DNA of 64,000 nucleotides from Alphaproteobacteria bacterium (GTDB taxonomy: Bacteria; Pseudomonadota; Alphaproteobacteria; Bin98). How positions within the stretch are numbered: position 1 is the stretch's first letter; each line of letters opens with the position of its first letter. Shown here one piece after another: positions 9,453 through 24,350 of the stretch. The DNA lies in assembly GCA_965261615.1 (NCBI GenBank), contig OZ253461.1, forward strand, positions 1,395,994 through 1,459,993, given 5' to 3'. Below the pieces are notes generated by a model. That model made no database searches. It was not told the DNA's origin and saw nothing but the letters and a program-made list of their open reading frames with translations. A program made the position numbers and the translations under genes.

Positions 9453-10070
9453 TTATGTACGCTTATCGCGCAACAAAGTCGCATATTTATGATTTGCGTC
9501 TCTATGCGCTTCCTCTTCCGCAAGTATAACACAAACAACATCACTAAGCTTAGAATTTTTCTTCAGATCCCAGTATTCATAAGCGATTTTAGGGGCCGCA
9601 ACATTCTCTTCTGGAGAGCCCTCAAGATAGTGCAAGTATTCACGATAACTTGCCACAGCTTCCTCTTCCAAATAACCAACAAAGCGATGCGCAACAGTCG
9701 GCGCAAAAAGATAGAGCAGTGTATAAAAAAAGACAAAACCAAATTGCCCTAATTTTATGAACACCCACTCCACCGTGGTCGGCTCCGCGATCGCCTTAAA
9801 GGTCATGAGATGTTTATATTCATTATGCGCTTCATCCAAAAGGCTTTGTATCCATCCATGATCGTCTCGAATACGCCTTAAGCAAGAGAAGTGCAACAAA
9901 GCACCACCAACCATTCCCGGAATTCCCGCAACCGTCTCCAACACCAACGCATGGTGGGCATAACGCTTTTGAAAAAACCAATCCCTCGGTCGGCGCATTA
10001 ACCACACCATCCCCCAGGCAAATCGATCCCCGAAATTTTGCGGCTTATAATGCTTCATCTCTTCTTTCAT
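9453..10070 (-). CDS. aox: Alternative oxidase (cyanide-insensitive ubiquinol oxidase, AOX)
   Basis: All four di-iron motifs are present in order: LETVAGIPGMVGG, EAHNEYKHLMTF, HRFVGYLEEEAV and LAEEEAHRDANH. It is collinear with mitochondrial/trypanosomal AOX over essentially the whole length. Confidence 0.9.
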   Translation of the reverse strand: MKEEMKHYKPQNFGDRFAWGMVWLMRRPRDWFFQKRYAHHALVLETVAGIPGMVGGALLHFSCLRRIRDDHGWIQSLLDEAHNEYKHLMTFKAIAEPTTVEWVFIKLGQFGFVFFYTLLYLFAPTVAHRFVGYLEEEAVASYREYLHYLEGSPEENVAAPKIAYEYWDLKKNSKLSDVVCVILAEEEAHRDANHKYATLLRDKRT

Positions 10071-11018: not shown

Positions 11019-12911
11019 TCAGTTTTGATCATAGTTGGCCAATATGTCAGCATACTGGTCTTTTGGCTTTCCTCCGCCACCACGTCTACGGTTCCTTTTC
11101 CCGTCAGAATCCGGACGCACTCTGTTACCAGCGTTTTCATCGACCACCTTTTCTTTCGAAGGCGATACAACATTACCGATTTCATCATTTCCGGAAGGTT
11201 TGTTATTTTGGGGGTCCTGCCTTCGACCTCCGCGACCACCACTACCGCCAGAAGAAGACTTCTGCCCCCCACCATGCTCGTGTAACATCACAATCACTCT
11301 TGGGCGCTTTCCAGCGACACCCTCAATCCACTTACGTGTGTCAACACACAAGTAATGGGTTAATGTTTTCGGATGAGCGCCTTTGTGGTTCGCCACAATT
11401 TTGTGAATCATACCATTTAGATCTGATTGCAGAGAAGCATCCTCCCAAACACCCAGCTGCGCAGCGACGGCTTTTTCATATACCCCTTTCGCATTACGCA
11501 AAACAGAAATAGTCACCACACCATTTTTGGACATAGTTTCGCGCTCTTGCAGCACAGGACTGTCCAAATCAATATAGCGCTTCCCGTCCAAACCAAAAAC
11601 TTTAGCATCTGCGCTCATAACCATCTCAACATCATCACTGGAGCACTCATACAAGTGCCCATTTTTTGTATGCAAAGACTGTAGTTTTTTACCATTCGCA
11701 ACAATCTTGTGTTCCCCCAAGTGATAGTGCTCTCCGTGAACTGGCAAAACCATTTTTGGTTTCAGCCATTGATACATCGTTTCCACATCTTCTCGGCTTG
11801 GGTGCCCTGCCACGTGCACCATAATGTGCTCATTCGATATCACACGCGCACCCTTAAGGTTTAGGTTGTTTTTAAGCTCAGCAATTTTGCGCTCGTTTCC
11901 TGGAATATTTCTTGAGGAGAAAATCACGATATCCTCTTCCTTCAGAGACACAAATCGATGCGAGTCTGTGGACAGGCTCCACAGCGCGGCTCGATCTTCT
12001 CCTTGAGATCCAGAGCACACAAAAGCAACTTTCGCTGCAGGAAGGTCGGCCGCCTCTTGTGGTGACACCACCTCAGGAAAGTCAGCCAAATAGCCCAACT
12101 CTGAAGCTACAGCATATGTTTTCTGGAAAGAGCGCCCGAGCAAACAAAGCTTCCGCTTGTGTTTGCGCGCTGCCCGACCAACAGCCACCATACGGCCTAC
12201 ATTTGAAGCAAAGCATGACACAAAAATACGCTGCTTCTTATAATCTCCAAAAAGCTTCATTATGTTATCAGCCACATCTGTCTCTGTTCCAGTGGCCTCC
12301 ATAACGTTAATGCTAGTTGAGTCACAAACAAGCACATCCACACCTGTCTTTTTAACAAACTCTACATCCTTCGCAGTAGTAGGCTGTCCGATTACAGGGG
12401 CATTGTCTAAACGCCAGTCCCCTGTGTGAAACACCTTCACCTTAGGTGTGCGCAAATACACTCCTGAGGCATCTGGAATAGAGTGGTTTAAAGGAATAAA
12501 GCGCGCATTAAAGTGCTCAGAAATTTGCGTATCTTTTTGCCATTCCACCACACGAATGTCGTCCTCATTGAATGAAACACCATTATCATTAAACTGATAT
12601 TTTATCATCCCCGCTGTAAACGGTGTGGTGTAAATAGGGCAGCGAATATCCTTCCAAAAATACGGCAAGGCTCCCACGTGATCTTCGTGGGCATGCGTCA
12701 TAATACACGCCTTTAAGTTTTTCTTTAAATTTTTTACAATTGTATGATCGGGAAAAACCACATCCACACCAAACCCTGGGTTAAAACTTACTCCCCAGTC
12801 GACCATGATCCATTCTCCGCAATACCCATAAAGGTTGAGGTTTCGTCCTATTTGGCCCGCACCACTTATTGGCCAAAAATATAATTTATCTTCTCTTAAC
12901 TTTAATTTCAT
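11019..12911 (-). CDS. rnj: Ribonuclease J (metallo-beta-lactamase / beta-CASP RNase) with ~84-aa Gly/Arg-rich C-terminal tail
   Basis: HAHEDHVG zinc motif and beta-CASP architecture. The alpha-proteobacterial position after nuoN-birA fits. The C-terminal tail is GGGQKSSSGGSGGRGGRRQ...KRNRRRGGGGKPK. Confidence 0.85.
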   Translation of the reverse strand: MKLKLREDKLYFWPISGAGQIGRNLNLYGYCGEWIMVDWGVSFNPGFGVDVVFPDHTIVKNLKKNLKACIMTHAHEDHVGALPYFWKDIRCPIYTTPFTAGMIKYQFNDNGVSFNEDDIRVVEWQKDTQISEHFNARFIPLNHSIPDASGVYLRTPKVKVFHTGDWRLDNAPVIGQPTTAKDVEFVKKTGVDVLVCDSTSINVMEATGTETDVADNIMKLFGDYKKQRIFVSCFASNVGRMVAVGRAARKHKRKLCLLGRSFQKTYAVASELGYLADFPEVVSPQEAADLPAAKVAFVCSGSQGEDRAALWSLSTDSHRFVSLKEEDIVIFSSRNIPGNERKIAELKNNLNLKGARVISNEHIMVHVAGHPSREDVETMYQWLKPKMVLPVHGEHYHLGEHKIVANGKKLQSLHTKNGHLYECSSDDVEMVMSADAKVFGLDGKRYIDLDSPVLQERETMSKNGVVTISVLRNAKGVYEKAVAAQLGVWEDASLQSDLNGMIHKIVANHKGAHPKTLTHYLCVDTRKWIEGVAGKRPRVIVMLHEHGGGQKSSSGGSGGRGGRRQDPQNNKPSGNDEIGNVVSPSKEKVVDENAGNRVRPDSDGKRNRRRGGGGKPKDQYADILANYDQN

Positions 12912-12915
12912 AACA

Positions 12916-13605
12916 TTACAGGGTTATCCCCGCCTCCAAAACTAAACTTCCTGCAGCCAGCTCACATGTTTGTCCGTCTTTATCTAAAAGCGCGGACCCA
13001 TTCACACTAACTCCCAAAAACTTTCCGGCCTCTGTTGGCCAATTTACGCGCTCCACTTTTACAGAACGTCCAATCCACAAGCCATGCGCATTCCACTCTG
13101 CACAGCAACAATAAGGGTTCCCCAGGTATATCTGCCAATCTGCAAGCACTTTTTTTATAATCCCCCATTTGTCGAGCACAACCCCCGTTACAGAAGCCAA
13201 ACTTACAGCTCGATCAATCGGCGCGTACAACGCGTTGATTCCAAAGCCCAAAATCCATCGATTAGCGGCCCGCTCAAGCAGCATCCCGCCCACCTTTTGA
13301 TTTTGCACGAAGAGGTCGTTGGGCCATTTTATTGAAACATCACAAAAATTCCCAAGCGCTCTTCTTATAACAACACTTGCCGCCATAATCAGCACATTCG
13401 GACAAAGGTCACTTTGAAAAGCCACGCTGCAGTATATATTCCCCTGCGGTGACGACCATACACGACCGTACTGCCCTCTCCCTTCCGTCTGTGCCTCTGC
13501 CACAAGAGCAACTATGCTCCTATTTGAAAACGCTTGCAGTTCTTTAATTGCGCTCATAGTCGATGAGCAACTTTTTACAGCACTTAAGCCAATCTCTGCT
13601 AACAT
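12916..13605 (-). CDS. birA: Biotin--[acetyl-CoA-carboxylase] ligase, group I (no N-terminal HTH)
   Basis: GRGQYGRVWSSPQGNIY matches the GRGRxGRxWxSPxG biotin-binding signature. At 229 aa it has the catalytic and C-terminal domains only. Confidence 0.85.
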   Translation of the reverse strand: MLAEIGLSAVKSCSSTMSAIKELQAFSNRSIVALVAEAQTEGRGQYGRVWSSPQGNIYCSVAFQSDLCPNVLIMAASVVIRRALGNFCDVSIKWPNDLFVQNQKVGGMLLERAANRWILGFGINALYAPIDRAVSLASVTGVVLDKWGIIKKVLADWQIYLGNPYCCCAEWNAHGLWIGRSVKVERVNWPTEAGKFLGVSVNGSALLDKDGQTCELAAGSLVLEAGITL

Positions 13606-13710: not shown

Positions 13711-14853
13711 TCACCGCCATAGCCACATGAGCATGCCCGCCACCATAGACACGCCTTGCACCACGGCAACATACCATCGTTCGTCCCGCCAATTACGCAT
13801 AATATGAACTTTGATTTCAACGGAGACTAACACACAAATACAAAACAAACAGTAACACAATACCAGCCAGCGCAACGTAGGGGGCAAGTCACCCCACAAA
13901 GCACACGACCACACCAAAGGATGCCCCACAAGAGCACCACTAGCCACACAAAGCGTTAAAACCGCAAATTGATTCCACGACAACCAAGCTGCCATTGCCA
14001 ACATAACAAAGACATAGCTTATAACAGCTCCATAACCAATAAATGGTTCCAATAAAAACGACAGGCTCACCCCCTGTACAAACGCCACATGCGTCAAAAC
14101 TTTTTTTTCACGCCCTGACCCAAGCGACGCCACACCATAAAGAGCGGAAAAGATCATAAAGGCAGTCAGCCATTCTGAGGGCAAAATATAGCAAAATATA
14201 GGAACAGGAACCCAGTACAGCCACACTATATGAGGAAGGGGAACGTACTCCTCCAAAAGAGAGTATCTCATAAATGGCAGCGCTGACAGAAGAAGAGCTG
14301 CGCACACAAGAGTGATACTTAAAAAGTTGTTATCCACCACAGGAAACCAGGTCATACTGCTTGCAATAACCCATCGAAAAAGCGCCACACTTTGCAGCAT
14401 GAGACAGCCAAGAAGGCTTAATATAACAGCATAGCGATGAGCTGTCGCCATTTGACAGCGTAGCAAGACTATAAGAAACACAAGCAATACAGTGCTGATC
14501 ACATCACTCGGGGTCTGCAGCCACACACTAATAGCGGCTAAGAGAACCCATGCTCGCTCCAAACCTAAGGTTTGCAAAGGAAATATAGGCAAAAGAGCGA
14601 GCAACATCAAAGCCCTTCCCTCGGGAAGGCTACCCCACACACCCTCACAGACTATCGCCGGCGCCATGCCGGCATACCAAATAATATTTTGAGCGCTCTT
14701 AACCAACCTGTGCAAAGAAAAGGTGTGCAGCAACCAAGAGACGCACACCCCCACCACTGAAACAACCTCAATAAACATAAGACCCCACCACCCTTCGAGC
14801 CATGCTATAAAGCAAAGCCAGTCTTTCATCCAAGTGCACACCACAAATGACAA
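13711..14853 (-). CDS. nuoN: Truncated, highly divergent antiporter-like complex I subunit (NuoN position)
   Basis: Last gene of the nuo array, directly before birA as in other alphaproteobacteria. It is a polytopic membrane protein of 380 aa. There are relics of the Mrp/Nuo motifs (PLPHIVWLYWVP resembles aPfHxWxPD; KKVLTHVAFVQGVSL resembles KRLLAYSSIxHxG). Confidence 0.45.
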   Translation of the reverse strand: MSFVVCTWMKDWLCFIAWLEGWWGLMFIEVVSVVGVCVSWLLHTFSLHRLVKSAQNIIWYAGMAPAIVCEGVWGSLPEGRALMLLALLPIFPLQTLGLERAWVLLAAISVWLQTPSDVISTVLLVFLIVLLRCQMATAHRYAVILSLLGCLMLQSVALFRWVIASSMTWFPVVDNNFLSITLVCAALLLSALPFMRYSLLEEYVPLPHIVWLYWVPVPIFCYILPSEWLTAFMIFSALYGVASLGSGREKKVLTHVAFVQGVSLSFLLEPFIGYGAVISYVFVMLAMAAWLSWNQFAVLTLCVASGALVGHPLVWSCALWGDLPPTLRWLVLCYCLFCICVLVSVEIKVHIMRNWRDERWYVAVVQGVSMVAGMLMWLWR

Positions 14854-15655
14854 AAACAGTCAGCCAAGCTAATGAGACTCGCATATCATTTTTGCGCAGC
14901 GGCGCTAAGCTAATCCAAACAGCCAAAAAAGCATAAAATGCCTGGAGGTCACGCGCACCACAAACAGCAGACATTCCCACCAGCAAAACGCTCACAAAAA
15001 TACTGCCATAACTCACTCTATTTTTTTCCAAATACACGTGCTGCCAGTACAGCGCTCCCGCAAAGTACGCCGCCATGGACCACCCAAGATCGCCTGCAAA
15101 GCTTGAGCCCACAAAAAAAGCGGACAAAAGCCCGGCTCCTACCCAAGATTTACCTTGCGTGACATTACCGGAAAAGCTTATCACAGCCAAGACACCCATC
15201 ATCTTCCAACATGTGACAGCAGGCAAAAACGCCAAACACTGCAGCTGCAAAAGGCTCGCAACCCTTTCTATAATATATGCACTGCCATCCCTTAAACACT
15301 CCAAAGCCGCAAATAGAGCCCAGCAAAAAAGAACCGCATAGCAAGACTGTCCTGGATGCAGCATCGCAAAATAGAAGCTTAAAAAAAACAACAGAACACA
15401 CCGCAAATACGCAGCTCCATTAGACAGGCCATGAACAGCCCAAGCACAAAAAACACATACGGCGATAAAATGCACATATAGCCAGCTGGATCCCAGAAAA
15501 AACTTGCATACAGGAAAAGCGGCCAACAAAAAGGTAAACGCCGCCCAAATAAACGCACGCTGAGAAATCAAAAAGCATGCATACACTGCTGGTAAGCTTC
15601 CTTGTAGTACACTATCCCACACAAACATAGGACCTCCAACCACACAACACTCCAA
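14768..15655 (-). CDS. nuoM: Truncated, highly divergent membrane subunit at the NuoM position
   Basis: The call rests on position between the NuoL-like and NuoN-like genes. It is polytopic and only 295 aa, against about 500 aa for canonical NuoM. No clear motifs were seen by eye. Confidence 0.3.
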   Translation of the reverse strand: MECCVVGGPMFVWDSVLQGSLPAVYACFLISQRAFIWAAFTFLLAAFPVCKFFLGSSWLYVHFIAVCVFCAWAVHGLSNGAAYLRCVLLFFLSFYFAMLHPGQSCYAVLFCWALFAALECLRDGSAYIIERVASLLQLQCLAFLPAVTCWKMMGVLAVISFSGNVTQGKSWVGAGLLSAFFVGSSFAGDLGWSMAAYFAGALYWQHVYLEKNRVSYGSIFVSVLLVGMSAVCGARDLQAFYAFLAVWISLAPLRKNDMRVSLAWLTVFVICGVHLDERLALLYSMARRVVGSYVY

Positions 15656-16760
15656 TCAACAAAAGCACCAACAATACACCGCCCACATAATCATGCTGAC
15701 GATACCTCACGATTTTAGACTGCACCGTTGTCAACAATTTTTCTACAAAGTTATCCCCACTCTTAATAGCACGCCACCAACTAAAAGACAGTGGGCGCAC
15801 TTTTAACATATACCCCCCCATTACCGCAGCGCTATAAAACAGCCCAAATCCCAAGCCTTGTCCTAGCTTCACCTTCTGCAGCAACCAAAGAGAGCTCAGC
15901 GTAAACCCACCGTACAACAACACCATGGCCAAAAGCAAAAAAAACATTTTAGAAAACCTCACCTGAGTCTCTGGCTGCTCATAACTCCACCGGCACAAAA
16001 GACGCCCATGCACCATACCGCACCCTGCGAGCATAATCAATTGATGCAGTCGATCAAAGTGACTCACATCACTTTTACATAAGAGCGGAATAAACACCCC
16101 ACCAGCAGCAATCCACAAGCTAACCATACTGGATATTTTAATTGCTTTCCGCATTTGTGCAGAGTGAAAGCTCAACCCTTGCGCAAAGGGAATAAGCAGC
16201 ACTGACATCAGCCAACACACCCAACCTCCTTTCACCCCACCTGAGCACGGCAAAAGCTGCCCAAGTACGCAAGCTTGCGAAATGGCAGCGTATCGTAAAG
16301 TCCACAGCGGGCAGCACATCGCCCAAACAGTCAAAATCCCCTGCAGCCACATCATCTGTGGAACATACATAAATTGGCAAGCATAAGGCAAAAAGTTAAG
16401 CAAGCAAACAGCATACCAGCTAACAAAAACAGCACTCCACGCATGCTGCTCGCGCGGCAAACAATACGCCCCCAGCATCACTACCCAGAACACGTGTCCC
16501 AATGGAAGCTTTCCAAAAGCACAGCCCACCCCCACAAATAGAGCGATCACCCAAATCAGTAAAAACGCACCCACAATACGTGGCAAAAAGCACAAAAAGT
16601 ACCCTAAACTGACCCAGGATGCCCAAGGCACAGGCAGAAAAAGTATGCTCGCTGACCCCAAAGCCCAAAATGCTTTTTCCCACATTTTTTTCGCACAAGC
16701 AACAGCCCACAGCGAAACAAACACCGCACACACTACTGCGTAGTACGGGGCCGCTATCAT
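15612..16760 (-). CDS. nuoL: Truncated, highly divergent antiporter-like subunit at the NuoL position
   Basis: Polytopic, 382 aa, against about 600 aa for canonical NuoL. There are relic motifs (GKLPLGHVFWVV resembles GKSAQxPLHxWLP; MRKAIKISSMVSL resembles DxKKxLAYSTxSQL). It overlaps the nuoK-like stop by 4 nt. Confidence 0.4.
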   Translation of the reverse strand: MIAAPYYAVVCAVFVSLWAVACAKKMWEKAFWALGSASILFLPVPWASWVSLGYFLCFLPRIVGAFLLIWVIALFVGVGCAFGKLPLGHVFWVVMLGAYCLPREQHAWSAVFVSWYAVCLLNFLPYACQFMYVPQMMWLQGILTVWAMCCPLWTLRYAAISQACVLGQLLPCSGGVKGGWVCWLMSVLLIPFAQGLSFHSAQMRKAIKISSMVSLWIAAGGVFIPLLCKSDVSHFDRLHQLIMLAGCGMVHGRLLCRWSYEQPETQVRFSKMFFLLLAMVLLYGGFTLSSLWLLQKVKLGQGLGFGLFYSAAVMGGYMLKVRPLSFSWWRAIKSGDNFVEKLLTTVQSKIVRYRQHDYVGGVLLVLLLIGVLCGWRSYVCVG

Positions 16761-17035
16761 TTAGAAGACCTCTGACATTTTGTTAACAATACAAGGCTCA
16801 CCAAAAAGTAGCTAATGCTTATAAGAAGCGTTATTAAGCTTGCTCCGCCTTCTTGGCCACTCGTCAACACCACAACCACAACTCCCAAACTCACAATTTG
16901 AGAAAAAAATATACGTGTCACTCCTCGTTTGCCCCAAATCAAACCTAAAAGACCCAAGAGTATAATTAGCACACCACCCACTTCACACCTCCTCTTGCTA
17001 ACCCTTTTGTAATTTAGACAGCAGGGCATCAACAT
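16757..17035 (-). CDS. nuoK: NuoK-like small membrane subunit (divergent)
   Basis: Three predicted TM helices, size and position fit NuoK. GLLGLIWGKRGVTRIFF resembles GLxGxxxRRNxIxxLM. The real start is possibly the GTG at 16981. Confidence 0.4.
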   Translation of the reverse strand: MLMPCCLNYKRVSKRRCEVGGVLIILLGLLGLIWGKRGVTRIFFSQIVSLGVVVVVLTSGQEGGASLITLLISISYFLVSLVLLTKCQRSSK

Positions 17036-17435
17036 AATAAGATCCTACGCCCAACAAAATAAAAACTAACATCCAAATCCATTGGACATTATGAAGTAAA
17101 ACTTCTGTATACGGTCCCACACTCACAGCAGGAAGCTCAAAAATGTCAGGCCTCCAAAGCACCCCAGCTGCACCAAGAAGCCAAACCACAAATCGCGTGA
17201 TTCGGCCCTTAGGGTCAAAAAAATCTTGCTCCTGATCCAGCACAAACTCAAGCAAAGAAATAAAGGCCCCCAACGTCACCAAGCTTACAAAAAATACACC
17301 GACCTGATATAGGGCTCCCACTCCCACAAGAACCATCAGCACCCCAAGGCGCATAAACGCAGCTGCACCATGAAGCATCAGCATGCCTCCCACAATTATT
17401 TTTGTGATCCCCAGCCACCAAAAACACTCCGTCAT
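16998..17435 (-). CDS. nuoJ: NuoJ-position membrane subunit (divergent, short)
   Basis: The call is positional, between nuoI and the nuoK-like gene. It is a 145-aa hydrophobic protein. Confidence 0.3.
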   Translation of the reverse strand: MTECFWWLGITKIIVGGMLMLHGAAAFMRLGVLMVLVGVGALYQVGVFFVSLVTLGAFISLLEFVLDQEQDFFDPKGRITRFVVWLLGAAGVLWRPDIFELPAVSVGPYTEVLLHNVQWIWMLVFILLGVGSYYVDALLSKLQKG

Positions 17436-17444
17436 TTTCCTGCC

Positions 17445-17756
17445 TTATGTCCGTACATTTTTTTCAGAAGTAGGCGAAACCTCACAAGGAGTCTCTACAG
17501 TAAACTCAAGTGCATCAACTGGACATGATTGAACGCAAAGATCACAGTGCAAACAGCGGTTCATGTCTACATCCAACCTGGCAAGTTGCGGCAAGCCATC
17601 CACTATATAACCCTCTATCTGAATAGCATTTACTGGGCACACATTCGCGCAAATACCGCAAGTAACACACTTTTCTTTTTGTGTATGAGCATACCGCTTC
17701 ACAGAAAGTGTGTAAACCTCCGGTTTAGAACTTTGCAAGACTTTATTCTGTTTCAT
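17445..17756 (-). CDS. nuoI: NuoI-like 2x[4Fe-4S] ferredoxin subunit (short, 103 aa)
   Basis: Two complete CxxCxxCxxxCP motifs (CVTCGICANVCP and CLHCDLCVQSCP) with NuoI-like spacing, and the correct position in the operon. Confidence 0.7.
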   Translation of the reverse strand: MKQNKVLQSSKPEVYTLSVKRYAHTQKEKCVTCGICANVCPVNAIQIEGYIVDGLPQLARLDVDMNRCLHCDLCVQSCPVDALEFTVETPCEVSPTSEKNVRT

Positions 17757-17818
17757 CGCTTCGCCTCATCCACAAACAGCCACCCCTAACATGGCCTACT
17801 TTGTCAAATATCACCATA

Positions 17819-18508
17819 TCATAATATAAGCCGATGATATACATAAAACATGACTAGCACCCCGACACATAACGAGCTTATCGCAAAACTGACCCCCAAA
17901 ACTAGCCTCACAACCGAATGCACATGCGCAACACGATTCGGAGTGAATACCAAAAGCGCGCTGACGGCAAAGCCAAAAACAAACGCGCGTACACTGCTGA
18001 ATCCTATTGTCATTACAGGGGTATAAAGGCAAGGCAGACCGTAAAGTACAGATACACAAGCAGCCAGAGCAACATGTGTCCTCAGTTGAAGGTGCTTATA
18101 CAGAATATACATATCCGCTAAAATAACAGCACTATATCCATACAACGCAACCCCTTCAGAAAGGCACATAGCCGCAAAAACCCCAAAACCCACAGCCAAC
18201 CACATAAGCGCCGCTAACGCTAAAGAAGACCTTTTTGCCGCAACAGAAAAAGCGAGCAAAATTCCCACTCTTAGAACGACAGCTATCAACACGTGGCCCA
18301 ACTCTGCTGCCCACCACAAACCATACACCACCAATAAACACAAAGACAATGCCGACGTAGTATAGAGTTGAGAAAGCAAAAAACGCCTCCTAGAATAGAC
18401 CTGAACATACTGTCGCGGCCAGCCCTCATACCACCCATGCAAAACAGCAATCACGCCAGTATACAAAACTACAACCCCATAAAAGAGGCTAATGGAAGGC
18501 ATCACCAC
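17819..18508 (-). CDS. Membrane protein at the NuoH position (229 aa, no recognisable NuoH motifs)
   Basis: The call is positional, between nuoG and nuoI, and it overlaps the nuoG stop. It has about 7 hydrophobic segments. The canonical NuoH loop motifs were not found by eye. Confidence 0.3.
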   Translation of the reverse strand: MVMPSISLFYGVVVLYTGVIAVLHGWYEGWPRQYVQVYSRRRFLLSQLYTTSALSLCLLVVYGLWWAAELGHVLIAVVLRVGILLAFSVAAKRSSLALAALMWLAVGFGVFAAMCLSEGVALYGYSAVILADMYILYKHLQLRTHVALAACVSVLYGLPCLYTPVMTIGFSSVRAFVFGFAVSALLVFTPNRVAHVHSVVRLVLGVSFAISSLCVGVLVMFYVYHRLIL

Positions 18509-20574
18509 ACACCTCTTCTTTTCACTGCCGAGTCTTTATATATTTTTTGCATTTTGATGGAATTTTTCGCCACGATGTTGGGAACGCTCGAAGGATACTC
18601 TTCCGGAATCCAGGCGTCACTCAGCTGTATCACTGTACTCCCCAGTGACGATGAGCTCAATCGCTTTTCTCCCTTTTTTCCAAAGTGCGTTTCATATAAA
18701 CTTTGCACGTAACTTGTTAGCTGATCTCGACTACGCGCTTGATAATGCGAATTACATAAACGAATAATTTCCTGCAAAATCCAGACATCATCACGGACGT
18801 TGTGACGAGGGTTTGTCACTTTTTCAGTACACTTGAGCTGTCCTTCTGCATCAACATAAGAGCCCGCATGTTCTGTATGAACTTCACTAGGCATAATCAC
18901 TTGCGCTCCTCTGTATACGGCATCATCATGCGTACCCTGCAGCACCACCAATGTATCTTCACGCCAAAAACTCTTTTCTGGATAGTATCCAATACACCAT
19001 AGCCCCTTCAAGTAGCCTTGAGCAACTGCATCCTTAATCCCCGCGCTTGTAAGGCCTTGGTCTTGCGTAAGTGACTTTATATCCAAGCCCTGTATAGTGT
19101 TAGCGCAAAGTGGAACAAAAGCAATTGGCGCCCAATTGGCGGTTTGATTATAACGCGCGGCAATTTTGCGAATCATACCCCACACAATATTTGCATGTCC
19201 ATCACACACAACATGCTCCCCACAAATGAACAGAGGTTTTTTAGCATTACGTAACGCTGAGGCAAGAACGCCTCTTCCTTGCGCTAACTGCGTCAGGTGC
19301 AGCCGATCTCGCCCAACACACTGCGCATACTCCGTTGTTCCAAACGAGCCTAAGGAAAATATTGGCCCTCTCTTTTCATTACGATACCGCACCAACAGCG
19401 TGTGTAAAATAGGCATATCATAAAGCGGCGCCGCCCCCACAAGAATAATCGCATCCGCACACAATACTCTATCTAAGGGCCCTCCAAACGTATAATCTCG
19501 CGTTTCCTCTTGGAAAGTGGCGGGGTAATGTCCTGCATTAAGCGCACAATGCTTGATACCAACTTCTTGCATAAGAATCGACAAGGTCACCAACGTTTCT
19601 GCATCCACAAAGGGTCCCACAAGAACTCCAACGTTGCCCCAGCCAATTTTTTGAAATTGCTCCACAGCATAGGACAGAATACTCTCCCAACTCACGATTT
19701 TTCCAAAACCTTGCTCACGCACCTCTGGGGCTTGCACTCGATTTAAAACCAAACCATCCAAAGAAAAGCGAGCCCTATTGGACAACCATCGATATGGCAC
19801 TTTCTGAGGAGGCCTCACATCAACTATATAGCTTTCAAAGCGACGCCACACCAAAGGCGTTAGGGCAGCATCTTGCAGATCAAATCCAGGCACCTCCTGC
19901 ATCACGGAGCCAGACCACACTCTATCCGGCACAAGCGCACCCGACGGACAAATTTCCAGCAAGTTTCCTGAAAACACGGAAGGCGCATTCTGCTCTCCCA
20001 AGACACTCACGCCAGTGTCGCGTGAAAGCTCAAGCATCGGAAGGCCTACATTATTTTTATAAAACTCCACGCAAAGCTGACAGTGCATGCATCGCGTTGG
20101 AACCGCGCGCATTACAACATCCAAAGGCGCAGGCGGTGTCATGGACTCGTCCCTCACTCGCTGCTCACCACACGCTTTGTTGTTAGCCACTGCATTACCC
20201 AGCATATGATTATATTTTTTTTCTGACAAAGCGGCATCATTGGGCTGGTTACTAGCAATCAAGATCAACGCCTTTTGTCGAGCAGTCATTGCATCTTTAT
20301 GCTTTATAGAAACCTTTACGCCAGGCATATTGGCCATAGTGCATGCTAACAGCACCTTTTTTGACCGCATGCAGTATACGTGACAAGCACCTGCACACGA
20401 AGGGGCCTCTAACTCGTTGTAAAAACAAAAGTTTGGCAAAACTCCTTTAGCTTGCAGAGCAGACCCCAGCCGCTTCAAGTCCTCTCTAACAACCACAGGT
20501 TTTCCATCAATATATACAGTATGCTTCACAACAAATCTATCTCCGAAAGCCCTAGCAACCCCTTTGTCACCCAC
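18502..20574 (-). CDS. nuoG: NADH-quinone oxidoreductase subunit G-like (divergent)
   Basis: N-terminal 2Fe-2S-like Cys cluster (FCFYNELEAPSCAGACHVYC), RCMHCQLCVEF plus ICPSGAL (N4-type 4Fe-4S), then a molybdopterin-oxidoreductase-like body. The HxxxCxxCxxxxxC (N5) segment is replaced by NQPNDAALSEKKYNH. Confidence 0.72.
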   Translation of the reverse strand: MGDKGVARAFGDRFVVKHTVYIDGKPVVVREDLKRLGSALQAKGVLPNFCFYNELEAPSCAGACHVYCMRSKKVLLACTMANMPGVKVSIKHKDAMTARQKALILIASNQPNDAALSEKKYNHMLGNAVANNKACGEQRVRDESMTPPAPLDVVMRAVPTRCMHCQLCVEFYKNNVGLPMLELSRDTGVSVLGEQNAPSVFSGNLLEICPSGALVPDRVWSGSVMQEVPGFDLQDAALTPLVWRRFESYIVDVRPPQKVPYRWLSNRARFSLDGLVLNRVQAPEVREQGFGKIVSWESILSYAVEQFQKIGWGNVGVLVGPFVDAETLVTLSILMQEVGIKHCALNAGHYPATFQEETRDYTFGGPLDRVLCADAIILVGAAPLYDMPILHTLLVRYRNEKRGPIFSLGSFGTTEYAQCVGRDRLHLTQLAQGRGVLASALRNAKKPLFICGEHVVCDGHANIVWGMIRKIAARYNQTANWAPIAFVPLCANTIQGLDIKSLTQDQGLTSAGIKDAVAQGYLKGLWCIGYYPEKSFWREDTLVVLQGTHDDAVYRGAQVIMPSEVHTEHAGSYVDAEGQLKCTEKVTNPRHNVRDDVWILQEIIRLCNSHYQARSRDQLTSYVQSLYETHFGKKGEKRLSSSSLGSTVIQLSDAWIPEEYPSSVPNIVAKNSIKMQKIYKDSAVKRRGVW

Positions 20575-21674
20575 TTACTATACTGGCATATACACACATC
20601 ACGCGCCATGCGCGCCGCATATACAGCCGCGCCAACATCACCGCCATACAAGGCATTCTGCACTGCTGGCAACCCCTCACGGCATCCCACACAGTACCCA
20701 CTTCGCTCTTCCACCACAAAGTCCATAAACATTTGCACCATTCTCAGTAGGTCAGAAGATTTTGAAACTATCAAAATATCTCCCGACCGAATAGTCGTAT
20801 TAAGCTTTTGCATAGCGCTTTCACACAACACCGCTTTTTCCGCAACCGTTACCACGAGAGGTTTGGACAAAAGTCCTCCCGGAAATACACATCGAACATT
20901 AGACCATACACCCCTCACGCCACCTGCATATTTTTCAACCGCTGCCACCAAACCTTCTCCAACAGCAACCTCCACAACTTGCGGGTTAACGACCTCACCA
21001 CTTATAGCAACGATTTGCCGTGCATTTTTTTTCCACCAGTCGGCACCATTGACGCAGATAGTCGGGACACACAAGAAGGTTTCCGCAGCGCCCATAAGAA
21101 CTTTTTCGCCATAAAGTGTGCTCGGAGCAGGATTATGCACTTGATCGCTTTCTAAATGTCGCAACACCGCTTCATCTTCTGCTCCCCCCAAAAACCCTCC
21201 ACTTAATCGTATATGCACTAATATTTTCAGGGGAGACGCAGGTCCAATTACACCTCGCTCAATAGCCTGATCTCTTATTTGAACAAGTTTTTGATAATGC
21301 GCGATCAGTGCTCCATGTACAACTATACAAACATAGCGGGCTTTGACTGCAAGCGCCACTAATAGCGCCCCCTCCACGACGTTTTCTGGAGCCTGCCACA
21401 CAATAGCGGCCTCCTTTTTCTGCCCCCAAAAGCACTCCGCTGTATTAACTACAACACCTGCATAGTCTGATGTGGTGCGCAGTTTTTCTGAAAATTCCCC
21501 GCCACGCATACCACGATTCTCAAGCCCGCTGTTAACAAGCGTATCGTACACATAGTCCTTGCGTGTCATTAGCTTACGAAAAACCTCAAAGCCTTCTGGC
21601 GTAGCAAGCTGCGACAACATTTTCTTCATATCTACTAATCTTACCAACTTTCTGTTAGTAACTCCAGGGCACAA
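20526..21674 (-). CDS. nuoF: NADH-quinone oxidoreductase subunit F-like (divergent)
   Basis: Collinear with NuoF. NRGMRGGEFSEK stands for RGRGGAGFPTG, LSGGFLGGAEDEAV for GAGAYICGEETAL, and ERSGYCVGCREG for ESCGxCxPCREG. Confidence 0.72.
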   Translation of the reverse strand: MCPGVTNRKLVRLVDMKKMLSQLATPEGFEVFRKLMTRKDYVYDTLVNSGLENRGMRGGEFSEKLRTTSDYAGVVVNTAECFWGQKKEAAIVWQAPENVVEGALLVALAVKARYVCIVVHGALIAHYQKLVQIRDQAIERGVIGPASPLKILVHIRLSGGFLGGAEDEAVLRHLESDQVHNPAPSTLYGEKVLMGAAETFLCVPTICVNGADWWKKNARQIVAISGEVVNPQVVEVAVGEGLVAAVEKYAGGVRGVWSNVRCVFPGGLLSKPLVVTVAEKAVLCESAMQKLNTTIRSGDILIVSKSSDLLRMVQMFMDFVVEERSGYCVGCREGLPAVQNALYGGDVGAAVYAARMARDVCICQYSKWVTKGLLGLSEIDLL

Positions 21675-21682
21675 ACCCTCAC

Positions 21683-22099
21683 CTACACCTTAACTTTTTC
21701 ATCTTGAAGAAAAATAACTGGGCTGCTTTCGCACATCCCTAAGCAGCTATACTCTATGGATAGGTGCCCTAAATCAAGATGATCCCGCAGCCACTTTTGG
21801 TGTTTGTCTTTATTAGGACAAGAACTGCAGGTCATTCCGGCACAAACACGAACAACCGGCAACCCACCTGTATATCTCAAAGACGGGTTCTTTGCTATAC
21901 ATGCCCAAATCACTATAGGCTCTATTTGCAGCACTTCTGCAAGATTCAAAACCTGCTCTTCACAAATACCTAGGTCATTTTGCATTAATACTAAAATATC
22001 GTAAAGAATATTATCATCACGAGAAATTCTTTGCGTATTAACAATTTTATCCACTTTTTGTAAAAATGACTTCCACATACCCCTACCGATCCAGCTCAC
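21683..22099 (-). CDS. nuoE: NADH-quinone oxidoreductase subunit E-like (2Fe-2S thioredoxin-like ferredoxin)
   Basis: Cx4C...Cx3C pattern (VCAGMTCSSC ... SCLGMCESSP) and the correct position between nuoCD and nuoF. Confidence 0.7.
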   Translation of the reverse strand: MSWIGRGMWKSFLQKVDKIVNTQRISRDDNILYDILVLMQNDLGICEEQVLNLAEVLQIEPIVIWACIAKNPSLRYTGGLPVVRVCAGMTCSSCPNKDKHQKWLRDHLDLGHLSIEYSCLGMCESSPVIFLQDEKVKV

Positions 22100-23618
22100 T
22101 CATTGACAAACCCATAGACGCCGCCATGACAGGCAAATCTTCCTCTTCTACATCCTTTGCAAGAGAATTTATTAAAAAAGCAAGAGACAAGCTACTAGAG
22201 CGCATTTTCACACAAGAAGGGTAACTTCCTCCTCCCACCATAAGCATACTCACCACACCATTGGGTCCTTCCACGCAAGAGATGTGCTCTCCTTGATAAA
22301 AAATACCTTCTCGATAAAAATGCATATGCTGCATCATAGCTGTATTTTCTTGCCAAATCTTTTGATAGTCTGTCATAGCCCAACTTGTAGGGTTAGAAAA
22401 ATCAAGATCGGAGAGAGCAACAAGACCTTGGTTTAAGATACTTAAGCTTACTCGCACATCTTCAATCAACACTTGCGCACGAGTATATGCACACCCTTTC
22501 TCCTCCACAGGAAGGCTATACTGACACTCCACATAAGCGTCATAAGGCCTTTTCACACGCCAATCAAAGGCACAGCCGGTTGCGCGCAACACGGGGCCAG
22601 TCACGCCTAACGCAAGAGCTTCTTGGCTTCCGACAACACCAAGACCCGCCATCCTTTTGTGGACCATATCTCGAGAAAAAGCTTGTTGAACCTTTTGGAA
22701 AAATGTTGTAGCTACTTGCTCAAACTTTTGATGCAGGCTATATACATGCTCACTCATGGCGTGATGCACCCCGCCCGGACAAATAAAGTACCCTCGAAAC
22801 TCTGATTTAAGAGCTCCTAGCGCCCTCCGATAACTGCTATACAGATCCTCCCACCCAACACGACGACGATAACCAACACTCTCAAGAATTTGCATGAGGG
22901 TTGCTCCAGAGTAATAAATCCGAGATCCTTCTAACAGCACTATTCGTAACCATTTACTATATGGTGGCACTGTAATATTCAAACAGCCCTCCATATGCAA
23001 AGCGTAATTATGTTCATGAACAAAAGGCGTAGCAGCGCTCCAGCGCCCCATATACACCAACCCCTGAAGGTATGTTTTTGTGCGTAGGTGTTTTTCCCAC
23101 TGCCGTGCAAAAAAGCCAGGTTGCACATACGCACTCTTTATTTTTCCGTTCAGCTTTTGACCGCGCATAACACACACACCGCGCTCACTTGCATAAGGCC
23201 AAATCATTTTTTCAAACTCATTCTCTGCACACTCTCCTGGATAAAGGACGCTATGTTCCCACATATCCAAGAAGTTTACTTGATAACTTTCATACACCTC
23301 TTTTTGCAAGATTAAGGAGTTTTTGAAAAATGTATGCAGACTCACAATCGGAGCTCCAGACCATTTAAAACTTACACAATATATTTGTGCTGTAGCAGTT
23401 TCAAGAAACGTATAATACAAATAGCGACAATCCTCCTCTGCTCTTACCGCAATATCCAGCAAAAGATCCACTCCAATTTCAAGGCTTGTCAGCTTTTGGA
23501 TAACATCAAAAAACGACTTTTGCGCTATTCGCACAAATATATTATCTTGATGGGCAAACACACTCATTTTTTTATGATTTAAGCTTTTTATTGCTTTAAT
23601 TTTTATCGCAATCATCAA
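22083..23618 (-). CDS. nuoCD: Fused NuoC-NuoD subunit (divergent, 511 aa)
   Basis: The N-terminal third is NuoC-like (LILQKEVYESYQVNF resembles WxEREvxDmfGixF). The remainder is collinear with NuoD (GFFARQWEKHLRTKTYLQGLVYMGRW resembles GyLHRGxEKlxExxtyxQxxpyxDRl). The C-terminus MSELDR resembles the canonical ...GEVDR. Confidence 0.75.
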   Translation of the reverse strand: MMIAIKIKAIKSLNHKKMSVFAHQDNIFVRIAQKSFFDVIQKLTSLEIGVDLLLDIAVRAEEDCRYLYYTFLETATAQIYCVSFKWSGAPIVSLHTFFKNSLILQKEVYESYQVNFLDMWEHSVLYPGECAENEFEKMIWPYASERGVCVMRGQKLNGKIKSAYVQPGFFARQWEKHLRTKTYLQGLVYMGRWSAATPFVHEHNYALHMEGCLNITVPPYSKWLRIVLLEGSRIYYSGATLMQILESVGYRRRVGWEDLYSSYRRALGALKSEFRGYFICPGGVHHAMSEHVYSLHQKFEQVATTFFQKVQQAFSRDMVHKRMAGLGVVGSQEALALGVTGPVLRATGCAFDWRVKRPYDAYVECQYSLPVEEKGCAYTRAQVLIEDVRVSLSILNQGLVALSDLDFSNPTSWAMTDYQKIWQENTAMMQHMHFYREGIFYQGEHISCVEGPNGVVSMLMVGGGSYPSCVKMRSSSLSLAFLINSLAKDVEEEDLPVMAASMGLSMSELDR

Positions 23619-23628
23619 AAACTTCCTT

Positions 23629-23976
23629 TTATAGATAATTGGATAAATGCATAAGCATATTTTTCACGGTGTCCTGGCTTATCACACCTGTACGCCAAAT
23701 TAAATTAGGTTGAAACTCCCAACGTTCTCGACACGCCTCATCATCCATACCACAGGGAAGCGGAAGGCCTATGAGCCCCACAAGCTTAGGGTCTTGCAGC
23801 TGACTATACACTTTATGAAGCAAACCAACCATGCCTTTTGTGACCATACCAACCACGATCAAAACGTTTGCTTCAGAAGGCTGACAAATATTTCGCGGTA
23901 TCGAGTGCAACTCATCGCTTACCCCATTAAAAACAAATGGCACCAAAACCCCCCGGCGCACCGTTTTTTTAAACAT
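23629..23976 (-). CDS. nuoB: N-terminally truncated NuoB-like subunit (115 aa)
   Basis: PSEANVLIVVGMVTKGMVGLLHKVYSQLQDPKLVGLIGLPLPCG aligns with [44 protein letters not shown]. An in-frame stop at 24025-24027, with no ATG/GTG/TTG in between, rules out a longer N-terminus. Confidence 0.65.
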   Translation of the reverse strand: MFKKTVRRGVLVPFVFNGVSDELHSIPRNICQPSEANVLIVVGMVTKGMVGLLHKVYSQLQDPKLVGLIGLPLPCGMDDEACRERWEFQPNLIWRTGVISQDTVKNMLMHLSNYL

Positions 23977-24214
23977 GCTTTTTTTCCCCCAAAGACCATA
24001 GTTTATACACGGTGTATAAGAAAACTAAAACAGCAAGCAACCCCGTCAGTAGAGGAGTCGTTATTTCATGACAACCTATAAGGGCATAACTTATAAAGCC
24101 ACCTATTATAGAAAACACAACTGCAACTAGCATAATGGACCTTTCAAACATATCGCTCCTCCATCTAATTGTACCTAAAAAAAACACAAAAAGTGCAGTT
24201 TTTATAAAGTCCAA
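23969..24214 (-). CDS. nuoA: NuoA-position small membrane protein (81 aa, TTG start in the listed ORF)
   Basis: First ORF of the array, with two to three hydrophobic segments, overlapping nuoB by 8 nt. The assignment is positional only. Confidence 0.3.
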   Translation of the reverse strand: MDFIKTALFVFFLGTIRWRSDMFERSIMLVAVVFSIIGGFISYALIGCHEITTPLLTGLLAVLVFLYTVYKLWSLGEKKHV

Positions 24215-24235: not shown

Positions 24236-24263
24236 TTGACAAAAGTCTAGTCTATGCTATAAT
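24236..24263 (+). promoter_or_regulatory. Consensus sigma70 promoter TTGACA-16-TGcTATAAT for tRNA-fMet
   Basis: TTGACA lies at 24236-24241 and TATAAT at 24258-24263, preceded by TGc. The predicted TSS is about 24270, 3 nt before the tRNA. Confidence 0.65.
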
Positions 24264-24272
24264 CTATTGTGA

Positions 24273-24350
<78 letters not shown>

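What the first reader, a model, noticed from the sequence alone, without database searches (positions are those of the whole stretch)
22083..23618. Fused NuoC-NuoD with substitutions at the positions of the quinone-headgroup ligands
NuoC and NuoD are one 511-aa ORF. This fusion is known from E. coli-type operons and is not usual for alphaproteobacteria. In my by-eye alignment the HPAAHGVLRL hairpin, which carries the conserved His that binds quinone, reads ASERGVCVMR. The DRxDY segment, which carries the conserved Tyr, reads GRWSAA. HRGxEK reads ARQWEK. Together with the loss of N2 this suggests the Q-reduction site has been dismantled, while the fold and the C-terminal ...ELDR are kept.
Basis: inference. 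Interest (0 to 1): 0.65.

Follow-up and report, generated by a model that had tools for sequence, protein, structure and literature searches.

The report
Fused NuoCD of dismantled complex I
This gene encodes the fused NuoC-NuoD core of a respiratory complex I that has lost its quinone-binding residues, yet selection keeps it intact, together with its whole shrunken operon, in a small group of host-associated alphaproteobacteria.

Summary
The ORF lies on the minus strand (22083..23618; likely start ATG 23615, 510 aa) and is a genuine NuoC-NuoD fusion. The AlphaFold2 model has pLDDT 91.5 and its best structural match is E. coli NuoCD (TM 0.88). The quinone ligands are gone. There is no His in residues 123-176, Tyr87 (Thermus numbering) is Ala195, Asp139 is Ser, and the His169 position is not His. 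HRGxEK reads ARQWEK. Arg84 and the C-terminal ELDR are kept.

This is a lineage trait. Four metagenomic relatives (30-36% identical) carry the same fusion without the Tyr. They share the same shrunken operon and flanks: U1, U2, antisense tRNA-Met, nuoA to nuoN, birA, rnj. That synteny is alphaproteobacterial, so the fusion arose in place and was not imported from an E. coli-type operon.

The damage extends beyond the Q site. All five members lack the NuoF FMN/NADH motifs and have unrecognisable membrane subunits. The window organism has also lost all four N2 cysteines and the N5 ligands.

Even so, strain polymorphisms (18 synonymous, 9 nonsynonymous, no coding indels) show purifying selection. 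A well-conserved alternative oxidase lies 3.6 kb beyond nuoN.

Best reading: a catalytically dead complex I kept for a non-respiratory role. I found no published description.

The parts
22083..23618 (-). Fused nuoCD gene (511 codons from TTG 23618; probable start ATG 23615, 510 aa)
23214..23618 (-). NuoC-like (30-kDa) domain, residues 1 to about 135. It lacks roughly the C-terminal 70 residues of a free-standing NuoC.
   Evidence: AF2 pLDDT 93-98; Foldseek alignment to E. coli NuoCD covers both domains. PF00329 is weak. Alignment to Thalassobaculum NuoC.
23121..23216 (-). First beta-hairpin of the NuoD domain (residues 135-166), which carries the quinone-ligand His in canonical enzymes. It contains no His here. 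W140-P141 occupy the place of H34-P35.
   Evidence: lowest pLDDT block (68)
23091..23108 (-). ARQWEK (residues 171-176), in place of HRGxEK
   Evidence: HMMER alignment; coordinates
23031..23048 (-). GRWSAA (residues 191-196), in place of DRxDYx. R192 = Thermus R84 (kept); A195 = Y87 (lost).
22086..22097 (-). C-terminal ELDR, as in the canonical GEIDR ending
23629..23976 (-). nuoB remnant (115 aa against 179). All four cluster-N2 cysteines are absent.
23969..24214 (-). Small hydrophobic ORF in the nuoA position (start uncertain). Assigned by position only.
21683..22099 (-). nuoE remnant (138 aa). The four N1a cysteines are kept.
20526..21674 (-). nuoF remnant (382 aa). The FMN loop and NADH-binding segments are lost. 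The first N3 cysteine is replaced by Ser.
18502..20574 (-). nuoG (690 aa; start uncertain because it overlaps nuoF). N1b-like and N4 cysteines are kept. All N5 ligands (His plus 3 Cys) are lost.
17445..17756 (-). nuoI (103 aa). Both CxxCxxCxxxCP motifs are intact.
13711..18508 (-). Hydrophobic ORFs in the positions of nuoH (17819-18508), nuoJ (16998-17435), nuoK (16757-17035), nuoL (15612-16760), nuoM (14768-15655) and nuoN (13711-14853). All are shortened. None gives an HMM or profile match to its canonical counterpart.
11019..13605 (-). birA (12916-13605) and RNase J (11019-12911). This is the conserved downstream synteny.
24363..28376 (-). U2 (24363-26687, 774 aa) and U1 (26826-28376, 516 aa). 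These clade-specific ORFs have no Pfam match and always lie upstream of the operon. Whether they belong to the system is unknown.

Best explanation
The gene encodes the fused NuoC-NuoD core of a relic complex I. The protein still folds like NuoCD. I infer that it still docks with the remnants of NuoB, NuoI, NuoG/E/F and a set of hydrophobic anchor proteins. It can no longer bind and reduce quinone.

In the window organism the complex as a whole cannot pass electrons from NADH to quinone or pump protons. The flavin/NADH site, cluster N5, cluster N2, the His-Asp-Tyr quinone triad and every recognisable residue of the quinone tunnel and antiporter subunits are gone. The Fe-S clusters that remain (N1a, N1b, N4, N6a, N6b) are most simply explained as structural.

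The fusion arose in place, in the ancestor of a small clade of host-associated, reduced-genome alphaproteobacteria. Since then the complex has been kept by selection for a role other than NADH:quinone oxidoreduction. The most likely role is non-catalytic, as a scaffold or membrane-architecture element.

Shown: fold, fusion, residue losses, clade-wide conservation, purifying selection.
Inferred: assembly, loss of activity, structural role.
For: Fold and fusion:
- AF2 pLDDT 91.5; best Foldseek hits are E. coli NuoCD at TMq 0.88.

Ligand losses in NuoCD:
-. The roles of these residues are as described in PMC4893023, Fig. 3 legend.

Clade:
- Four full-length relatives (30-36% identity) were found by exhaustive HMMER search.
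- All lack the Tyr (RLDQ in three, RYSP in one). None has the HPxxHG motif.
- Gene order and sizes are the same in L002-L005.

Elsewhere in the operon:
- The NuoF motifs GRGGAGF, KW and PRLKPPFPA are missing or deleted in all five members.
- The window's NuoB has 0 of 4 N2 cysteines; the relatives have 3 of 4.
- The N5 ligands are lost only in the window.
- Membrane ORFs are 21-24% identical within the family and give no hhalign signal to NuoL or NuoH.

Selection:
- Peripheral subunits are 30-37% identical within the family, about the same as BirA at 35%.
- Across strains in six runs there are 27 single-gene SNPs: 18 synonymous and 9 nonsynonymous, against an expected synonymous fraction of 0.23-0.28 (P about 1e-6 to 4e-5; omega about 0.15-0.2).
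- The only indel is intergenic.
- There is a good Shine-Dalgarno sequence before the ATG.

Not a genome-wide effect:
- ProRS scores 547 bits (cutoff 550) and AOX scores 218 bits.
- AOX is 72% identical between the window organism and the L002 organism, where NuoCD is about 35%.
Against: - Many Fe-S ligand motifs survive. In relatives L003-L005 the chain N3-N1b-N4-N5-N6a-N6b plus 3 of 4 N2 cysteines is intact, which argues that at least those members still move electrons.
- One relative (P0124) may have a His at the H38 position.
- A conserved alternative oxidase shows that a quinone pool exists, so some input to it is needed.
- There are no transcript, protein or activity data.
- Only 64 kb of the genome is visible, so a second, canonical nuo operon cannot be excluded.
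- Loss of function is inferred from motifs. The FMN/NADH residue roles come from my recollection of the Thermus Nqo1 structures.
- The AF2 confidence partly reflects canonical homologues in the input alignment.
- The proposed structural role has no direct support.
Confidence: 0.55

Rival explanations
1. The complex is still a redox enzyme with different partners. Electrons would enter and leave the surviving Fe-S chain through an unknown donor and acceptor (a ferredoxin-like protein, another cofactor, or a re-shaped quinone pocket). NuoCD would then form a new kind of acceptor site rather than a dead one.
For: The cysteine motifs for N1a, N1b, N4, N6a and N6b are kept in all five members. N3, N5 and 3 of 4 N2 cysteines are kept in most relatives. 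R84 (R192), next to N2, is invariant. Precedents exist for complex I relatives with other donors, recalled from memory: cyanobacterial NDH-1 uses ferredoxin, and Campylobacter/Helicobacter lack NuoE/F. AOX shows that a quinone pool is in use.
Against: In the window organism N5 and N2 have no ligands, so the chain is broken in two places. The replaced loops in NuoF and the NuoD hairpin differ between family members, which is not what a new conserved site would look like. The NuoH-position ORFs share almost no invariant residues.
Confidence: 0.25
2. It is still an NADH:quinone oxidoreductase, and other residues have taken over the roles of His38, Tyr87 and the flavin loop in a fast-evolving proteome.
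For: The proteome of this clade is very divergent overall: bin98 has only 34% of its CDS in COGs (PMC5649159). Gln in RLDQ could hydrogen-bond a quinone. P0124 has His residues in the hairpin. The operon is complete and under selection.
Against: Losses hit every catalytic station at once: the FMN/NADH motifs, N2 and N5 in the window, the H/D/Y triad, H169, a truncated NuoB N-terminus, NuoH shortened by about 100 aa, and L/M/N shortened by about 40% with no conserved Lys/Glu. Housekeeping proteins and AOX in the same window are conventionally conserved.
Confidence: 0.1
3. The operon is a set of decaying pseudogenes that happen still to be open.
For: HMM scores are far below the curated cutoffs for every subunit, and several subunits give no hit at all.
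Against: Thirteen consecutive ORFs are open in the window. The same set, with the same lengths, is open in L002-L004, and as far as its contig reaches in L005, across lineages that are only about 35% identical in BirA. The SNP spectrum is 18 synonymous to 9 nonsynonymous (P below 1e-4), and there are no coding indels in six runs.
Confidence: 0.03
4. The fused gene was acquired laterally from an E. coli-type (nuo13) operon.
For: The fused C-D architecture matches the E. coli type, and the best full-length structural match is E. coli NuoCD. GC content is slightly lower (42.4%) in the 22-24 kb bin.
Against: The sequence profile scores much higher on mitochondrial/Paracoccus NuoD (200-232 bits) than on E. 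coli NuoCD (151 bits). NCBIfam NuoCD scores 105 bits against a cutoff of 840. NuoG is 690 aa, against 908 aa in E. coli. The synteny nuoN-birA-rnj is shared by all relatives. The family is monophyletic and separate from E. coli NuoCD. The GC value lies within the window's range, and the GC skew is unchanged.
Confidence: 0.03

Closest known systems
NuoD / Nqo4 / 49-kDa (NDUFS2) subunit of alphaproteobacterial and mitochondrial complex I
   Same: Same fold: TMt 0.87-0.91 to the Arabidopsis, bovine and Paracoccus subunits. These give the best sequence-profile scores. Conserved core motifs are retained: GPxLRAxG, D.R, PYD.Y, EGP.G and the C-terminal E.DR. Arg next to N2 is kept. The operon has the same position and the same downstream birA-rnj.
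   Different: It is fused to NuoC. The quinone-ligand His, Tyr and Asp and the redox-Bohr His are all replaced. HRGxEK is degenerate. It scores half of the NCBIfam NuoD cutoff (181 against 360).
E. coli-type fused NuoCD (PRK11742; PDB 7z7t chain C)
   Same: A single polypeptide with an N-terminal 30-kDa domain and a C-terminal 49-kDa domain. It is the best full-length structural match (TMq 0.88).
   Different: The window protein is 511 aa against 596 aa, with a much shorter linker and a truncated NuoC C-terminus. Sequence is more distant than to alpha/mitochondrial NuoD. The fusion arose independently. E. coli keeps the His, the Tyr and N2.
Complex I relatives that use other donors or acceptors (recalled from memory: cyanobacterial/chloroplast NDH-1, Campylobacter/Helicobacter Nuo, archaeal Fpo, Mbh/Mbs/Ech/FHL group-4 hydrogenase-type complexes)
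   Same: These are natural examples in which parts of the NADH module or the quinone chemistry are replaced while the NuoB-NuoD-NuoI-NuoH core persists. The family profile detects MbsL, MbhL and HycE.
   Different: Those systems lose or swap whole subunits and keep a working active site (NiFe, or quinone Tyr/His) and conserved antiporter residues. This family keeps every subunit position but strips the catalytic residues, and it has no NiFe cysteine pairs.
Pseudoenzymes (catalytically dead homologues retained for scaffolding or regulation)
   Same: The fold is retained, catalytic residues are lost, and there is purifying selection.
   Different: Here the pattern applies to a multi-subunit membrane complex encoded by a 13-gene operon. 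I found no described bacterial example.

Membership tests
NuoD / Complex1_49kDa (PF00346) | Match to the family HMM above the Pfam gathering score | tested here: met
   138.8 bits against a cutoff of 24
NuoD equivalog (NCBIfam NF004739 / TIGR01962), i.e. a functionally equivalent NuoD | Score above the curated equivalog cutoff | tested here: not met
   181 bits against 360; 144 bits against 459
Quinone-reducing NuoD | Tyr of DRxDY (Thermus Y87 / bovine Y108) at the quinone headgroup | tested here: not met
   Ala195 in the HMMER alignment. Absent in all four relatives.
Quinone-reducing NuoD | His of the HPxxHG hairpin (H38 / H59) and its partner Asp (D139 / D160) | tested here: not met
   No His in residues 123-176. 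Asp aligns to Ser.
Quinone-reducing NuoD | Conserved Arg beside cluster N2 (R84 / R105) | tested here: met
   R192, invariant in the family and in canonical sequences
NuoC / Complex1_30kDa (PF00329) | HMM match above the gathering score | tested here: not met
   13.9 bits against 22.5, E 0.081
NuoC / Complex1_30kDa (PF00329) | 30-kDa fold packed on the 49-kDa domain | tested here: met
   AF2 residues 1-120 have pLDDT 93-98. The Foldseek alignment spans the whole of E. coli NuoCD.
E. coli-type NuoCD (NF008728) | Equivalog score and common descent with gammaproteobacterial NuoCD | tested here: not met
   105 bits against 840. Lower PDB profile score than alpha/mitochondrial NuoD. Separate clade in the tree.
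Functional complex I (NADH:quinone oxidoreductase) | NuoF flavin/NADH site motifs (GRGGAGF, KW, ADESEPG, PRLKPPFPA) | tested here: not met
   Degenerate or deleted in all five family members. Residue roles are from memory of the Thermus Nqo1 structures.
Functional complex I (NADH:quinone oxidoreductase) | Complete Fe-S chain N3-N1b-N4-N5-N6a-N6b-N2 | tested here: not met
   In the window, N5 has 0 of 4 ligands, N2 has 0 of 4, and N3 has lost its first Cys. N1a, N1b, N4 and N6a/b are kept.
Functional complex I (NADH:quinone oxidoreductase) | Recognisable NuoH and antiporter-like NuoL/M/N with conserved charged residues | tested here: not met
   No Pfam or NCBIfam hits. hhalign probability is below 1%. 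There are almost no invariant residues within the family.
Group-4 [NiFe]-hydrogenase large subunit | N- and C-terminal cysteine pairs that ligate NiFe | tested here: not met
   The C-terminus is ELDR and there is no CxxC pair. The family profile matches Mbh (5.5e-28) and HycE (3.9e-25) far more weakly than complex I (about 1e-60), and standard hydrogenase large subunits only at E about 1e-3.

The most novel reading that the evidence does not exclude
A whole respiratory complex I has become a pseudoenzyme. The membrane complex is encoded by 13 genes and has lost NADH oxidation, quinone reduction and proton pumping. It has nevertheless been preserved by selection for a very long time in a clade of symbiotic alphaproteobacteria, because the assembled structure does something else. 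That could be membrane scaffolding or an interaction with the two clade-specific secreted proteins encoded next to it. The window organism would be the most advanced stage of this conversion.
Probability: 0.45. Interest if true: 0.85.

Novelty: new variant of a known kind. Interest (0 to 1): 0.75.

Why it matters
Complex I is treated as an indivisible energy-converting machine. Known natural variants swap modules but keep a working active site and the proton-pumping residues. This family keeps every subunit position while losing the flavin site, the quinone ligands and (in one member) two Fe-S clusters, and it is still under purifying selection.

That points to a selectable function of the assembled complex that is independent of NADH:quinone catalysis. 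The five members form a natural deletion series: relatives have 3 of 4 N2 cysteines and an intact N5, while the window organism has neither. The series shows which features the fold and assembly can do without.

It also affects how the energy metabolism of these uncultured host-associated bacteria should be read. Automatic annotation calls these genes 'NADH-quinone oxidoreductase', and a metabolic model built on that label would probably be wrong.

Tried and rejected
- Exact look-up of the window protein in assemblies: not on record.
- Genome-collection scans: the single-protein query found nothing. The alignment query found only bin98, which is the same as P0124.
- Metagenome scan: one full-length hit, identical to P0124. 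The other 79 loci listed covered only the NuoD part.
- The search for homologous proteins with the family alignment returned only canonical NuoD, because its word prefilter saturated. The relatives came from the exhaustive representative search.
- Taxonomy of the other fused CD proteins: no names on record. Run and organism names are coded, so the host is unknown.
- hhalign of the family profiles for the L, N and H positions against canonical NuoL/NuoH: no signal. Their identity therefore rests on gene order and hydrophobicity.
The single-sequence model had pLDDT 49 and was not used.
- The NJ tree could not place the family relative to canonical alphaproteobacteria because of the long branch. 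It only shows monophyly and separation from E. coli NuoCD.
- A hydrogenase-like active site was considered and rejected: there are no cysteine pairs.
- P0164 and P0166 were considered as family members and rejected. Their loci hold only short NuoB-CD-(ferredoxin or NuoF) modules.
- Six literature searches found no description of such an operon.
Full report
**1. What is at the coordinates**

The ORF 22083..23618 is on the minus strand. It runs 511 codons from a TTG. The next codon is an ATG (23615), preceded about 7 nt upstream by AAGGAAG and directly after the stop of the upstream nuoB remnant. The database copy is 510 aa (P0001, on a 1,465,401-bp contig), so 510 aa is the likely product.

Pfam finds Complex1_49kDa (2.3e-40, residues 277-511) and only a sub-threshold Complex1_30kDa (13.9 bits, E 0.081, residues 30-118). 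NCBIfam's NuoD equivalog aligns residues 159-511 but scores 181 bits against a cutoff of 360. The E. coli-type NuoCD model scores 105 bits against 840.

An AlphaFold2 model was built from an alignment of the protein, its relatives and canonical NuoD. It is confident throughout (pLDDT 91.5, pTM 0.91), including residues 1-120 at 93-98. Foldseek's best full-length matches are E. coli NuoCD chains (TMq 0.88), Aquifex NuoCD and HycE. Unfused mitochondrial and Paracoccus 49-kDa subunits cover the D half at TMt 0.87-0.91. The gene is therefore a real NuoC-NuoD fusion with the fold preserved. About 70 C-terminal residues of a free-standing NuoC and the N-terminal tail of NuoD are missing at the junction.

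**2. The ligand positions**

HMMER aligns ARQWEK (171-176) with HRGTEK, and YMGRWSAAT with YFDRLDYVS, of mitochondrial 49-kDa subunits. This fixes the numbering at H38, R84, Y87, D139 and H169; bovine numbering is +21. PMC4893023 (Fig. 3 legend) gives the roles of these residues:
- Y108 and H59 are the likely ubiquinone-headgroup ligands.
- H59 is hydrogen-bonded to D160.
- R105 is conserved next to N2.
- H190 is the proposed redox-Bohr group.

In the window protein:
- R84 is kept (R192).
- Y87 is Ala195.
- D139 aligns to Ser.
- The H169 position is Arg or Phe, depending on the alignment. There is no His in that segment.

The hairpin that carries H38 is too divergent for local HMM alignment, and the family has two extra residues there. 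The register of ASERGVCVMR against HPAAHGVLRL is therefore uncertain by about two positions. The conclusion does not depend on the register, because residues 123-176 contain no His at all. The C-terminal ELDR is present.

**3. It is a family**

The word-indexed protein search found only ordinary 392-aa alphaproteobacterial NuoD at 27-30% identity. The exhaustive HMMER search of 1.84 billion representatives found four full-length relatives: P0121 (511 aa, 36%), P0122 (519 aa), P0123 (528 aa) and P0124 (515 aa). P0124 is MCY4413687.1, from 'Alphaproteobacteria bacterium bin98'. That MAG comes from the sponge Aplysina aerophoba. It had the smallest genome of that study (about 1.9 Mb, 40.7% GC), and only 34% of its CDS fall in COGs (PMC5649159). 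A metagenome scan added no further lineage.

All five proteins are fused. The N-terminal domain is conserved among them (SF.W.G.P..SL...F.N...LQK), recognisably the NuoC motif P.L...W..A.W.ERE. None has HPxxHG. The Tyr position reads RLDQ in three members, RYSP in one and RWSA in the window. HRGxEK reads HRNIEK in three, HRGFER in one and ARQWEK in the window. P0124 might retain a His at the H38 position.

**4. The whole operon is shrunken in the same way**

The loci of the four relatives (L002-L005) show the same order as the window:
- two large ORFs without Pfam domains (U1, U2)
- a tRNA-Met on the opposite strand
- a 58-66-aa hydrophobic ORF in the nuoA position
- nuoB (113-118 aa)
- nuoCD
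- nuoE (129-159 aa)
- nuoF (367-393 aa)
- nuoG (673-690 aa)
- hydrophobic ORFs in the H, J, K, L, M and N positions, with nuoI between H and J. Their lengths are 226-254, 143-156, 71-92, 327-403, 258-295 and 363-380 aa.
- birA and RNase J

A canonical operon (Thalassobaculum, L001) has 121, 179, 212+392, 223, 434, 699, 334, 162, 202, 102, 643 and 503 aa for subunits A to M.

**5. State of the catalytic stations**

- **NuoF.** GRGGAGFPTGLKW is replaced by sequences that differ between members, with a 7-residue deletion. ADESEPG is altered. PRLKPPFPA is deleted. This holds in all five members. I know these segments as the flavin/NADH site from the Thermus Nqo1 structures (from memory).
- **N3.** All four Cys are present in L003-L005. 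The first is replaced in the window (Ser) and in L002.
- **N1a** (NuoE), **N4** (NuoG), and **N6a/N6b** (NuoI): all ligands are present in every member for which the subunit is available.
- **N1b.** Cysteines are present with altered spacing in all.
- **N5.** The HxxxCxxCxxxxxC motif is present in the four relatives. In the window it is replaced by QPNDAALSEKKYNH.
- **N2** (NuoB). The relatives keep the tandem CC and the CP cysteine (3 of 4). The window keeps none.

The membrane ORFs have no Pfam or NCBIfam match. They show almost no invariant residues even within the family. They give no hhalign signal against canonical NuoL or NuoH. They remain multi-helix hydrophobic proteins.

The window organism is therefore the most derived member. 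In it the electron path is interrupted at the entry, at N5, at N2 and at the quinone site.

**6. Not decay, and not a genome-wide effect**

Within the family, the peripheral subunits are 30-37% identical, the same as BirA (35%). The membrane ORFs are 21-24% identical.

Logan contigs of six public runs carry near-identical strains. Pooling their differences over the operon gives 27 single-gene SNPs: 18 synonymous and 9 nonsynonymous. The expected synonymous fraction is 0.23-0.28, so the binomial P is about 1e-6 to 4e-5 and omega is roughly 0.15-0.2. NuoCD alone has 4 synonymous and 1 nonsynonymous. The only indel lies between birA and nuoN. Random errors in low-depth contigs would bias toward nonsynonymous changes, so the test is conservative.

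Housekeeping genes in the window score conventionally (ProRS 547 bits, RpsB 286, TatD 236, KsgA 171). An alternative oxidase 3.6 kb beyond nuoN scores 218 bits. It is 72% identical to the AOX on the same 53,417-bp contig that carries P0121, and about 55% identical to Maricaulis/Rhodobacterales AOX. NuoCD is only about 35% identical between those same two organisms. The quinol-oxidising end of a respiratory chain is thus tightly conserved while complex I is not.

**7. Origin of the fusion**

The family profile scores 200-232 bits on mitochondrial 49-kDa/ND7 chains, 208 on Paracoccus NuoD, 174 on Thermus and 151 on E. coli NuoCD. NuoG is 690 aa, the alpha size, against 908 aa in E. coli. The nuoN-birA-rnj arrangement, with proS and lolC about 20 kb away in the window, is one I recall as typical of alphaproteobacteria. 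It is shared by every relative whose contig reaches that far.

A neighbour-joining tree of the D domain recovers the five proteins as a clade (100% bootstrap) with the window sister to P0121 (100%). The clade is apart from E. coli NuoCD and from other fused CD proteins. Its position relative to canonical alphaproteobacteria is not resolved, because of the long branch. GC content and skew give no sign of a foreign island. The fusion is best explained as a single in-situ event in the ancestor of this clade.

**8. How it most likely works**

- **Shown:** fold, fusion, residue losses, clade-wide architecture, purifying selection.
- **Inferred:** the protein still assembles with its neighbours into a membrane-anchored particle. 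This particle does not oxidise NADH, reduce quinone or pump protons in the window organism. The surviving clusters are kept because the NuoE/G/I folds need them.
- **Open:** what the particle is for. I commit to a non-respiratory, probably structural role as the most likely (0.55). The main rival (0.25) is a surviving electron-transfer function with unknown partners. This is more plausible for relatives L003-L005, whose Fe-S chain is nearly complete. A still-canonical enzyme (0.1), pseudogenes (0.03) and lateral acquisition (0.03) fit the data poorly.

**9. Novelty**

Six full-text searches returned no description of such an operon or of this clade's complex I. The only paper mentioning bin98 does not discuss it. 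Public annotation names P0124 'NADH-quinone oxidoreductase subunit C'. I rate it a new variant of a known kind: complex I with all subunit positions retained but the catalytic sites stripped.

**Limits**
- Only 64 kb of the genome is visible.
- There are no expression data.
- The host and taxon are coded or unknown.
- Homology of the membrane ORFs rests on position alone.

Noticed in passing
window 9453-10070 (-): A bacterial alternative oxidase (PF01786, 1e-64, 205 aa). It is 72% identical to the AOX on the same contig as relative P0121 and about 55% identical to Maricaulis/Rhodobacterales AOX. A non-pumping quinol oxidase is strongly conserved next to a dismantled complex I.
   Followed up: partly
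window 24363-26687 (-) and 26826-28376 (-): Two large ORFs without Pfam domains (U2, 774 aa; U1, 516 aa). U2 is Glu/Lys/Ala/Asp-rich with a run of 10 Pro, an apparent signal peptide and a conserved C-terminal domain of about 80 aa. Both are homologous and in the same position, directly upstream of the nuo operon, in all five loci.
   Followed up: partly
window 24236-24349 (+): A tRNA-Met (CAT) lies antisense between U2 and the nuoA-position ORF. It is preceded by a perfect sigma-70 consensus (TTGACA, 16 nt, TATAAT, with an upstream TG). The antisense tRNA-Met is conserved in all four relatives' loci, so transcription of the nuo operon must start within or read through this 150-nt gap.
   Followed up: partly
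L007 9571-11869 and L008 9555-12824: Other MAGs encode short modules without any membrane subunits: NuoB-NuoCD-ferredoxin in L007 and NuoB-NuoCD-NuoF in L008. Their fused NuoCD proteins (P0164, P0166) also lack the quinone Tyr, and HRGxEK is also degenerate in P0164. Several further fused CD proteins (P0130, P0142, P0155, P0163, P0184) show the same loss. These may be soluble NuoBCD-type enzymes of unknown function.
   Followed up: partly
window 1-64000: There is a strong, uniform strand bias: GC skew is -0.06 to -0.30 in every 2-kb bin and almost all genes are on the minus strand. The G+T-rich coding strand shows up as Val/Gly/Cys/Trp/Phe-rich proteins, with 4-6% Cys and up to 6% Trp in the hydrophobic ORFs.
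   Followed up: no
window 7089-8393 (-): Ribosomal protein S2 is 434 aa, with a long C-terminal extension beyond the usual length of about 250 aa. It gives a partial match to NCBIfam's 'sunset domain variant' of S2 (270 bits, below its cutoff of 710).
   Followed up: no
window 24942-25000: Contigs of several runs diverge inside the acidic repeat region of U2 (loose ends at 24942-24995). This suggests repeat-length variation between strains or assembly breaks in the low-complexity stretch.
   Followed up: no
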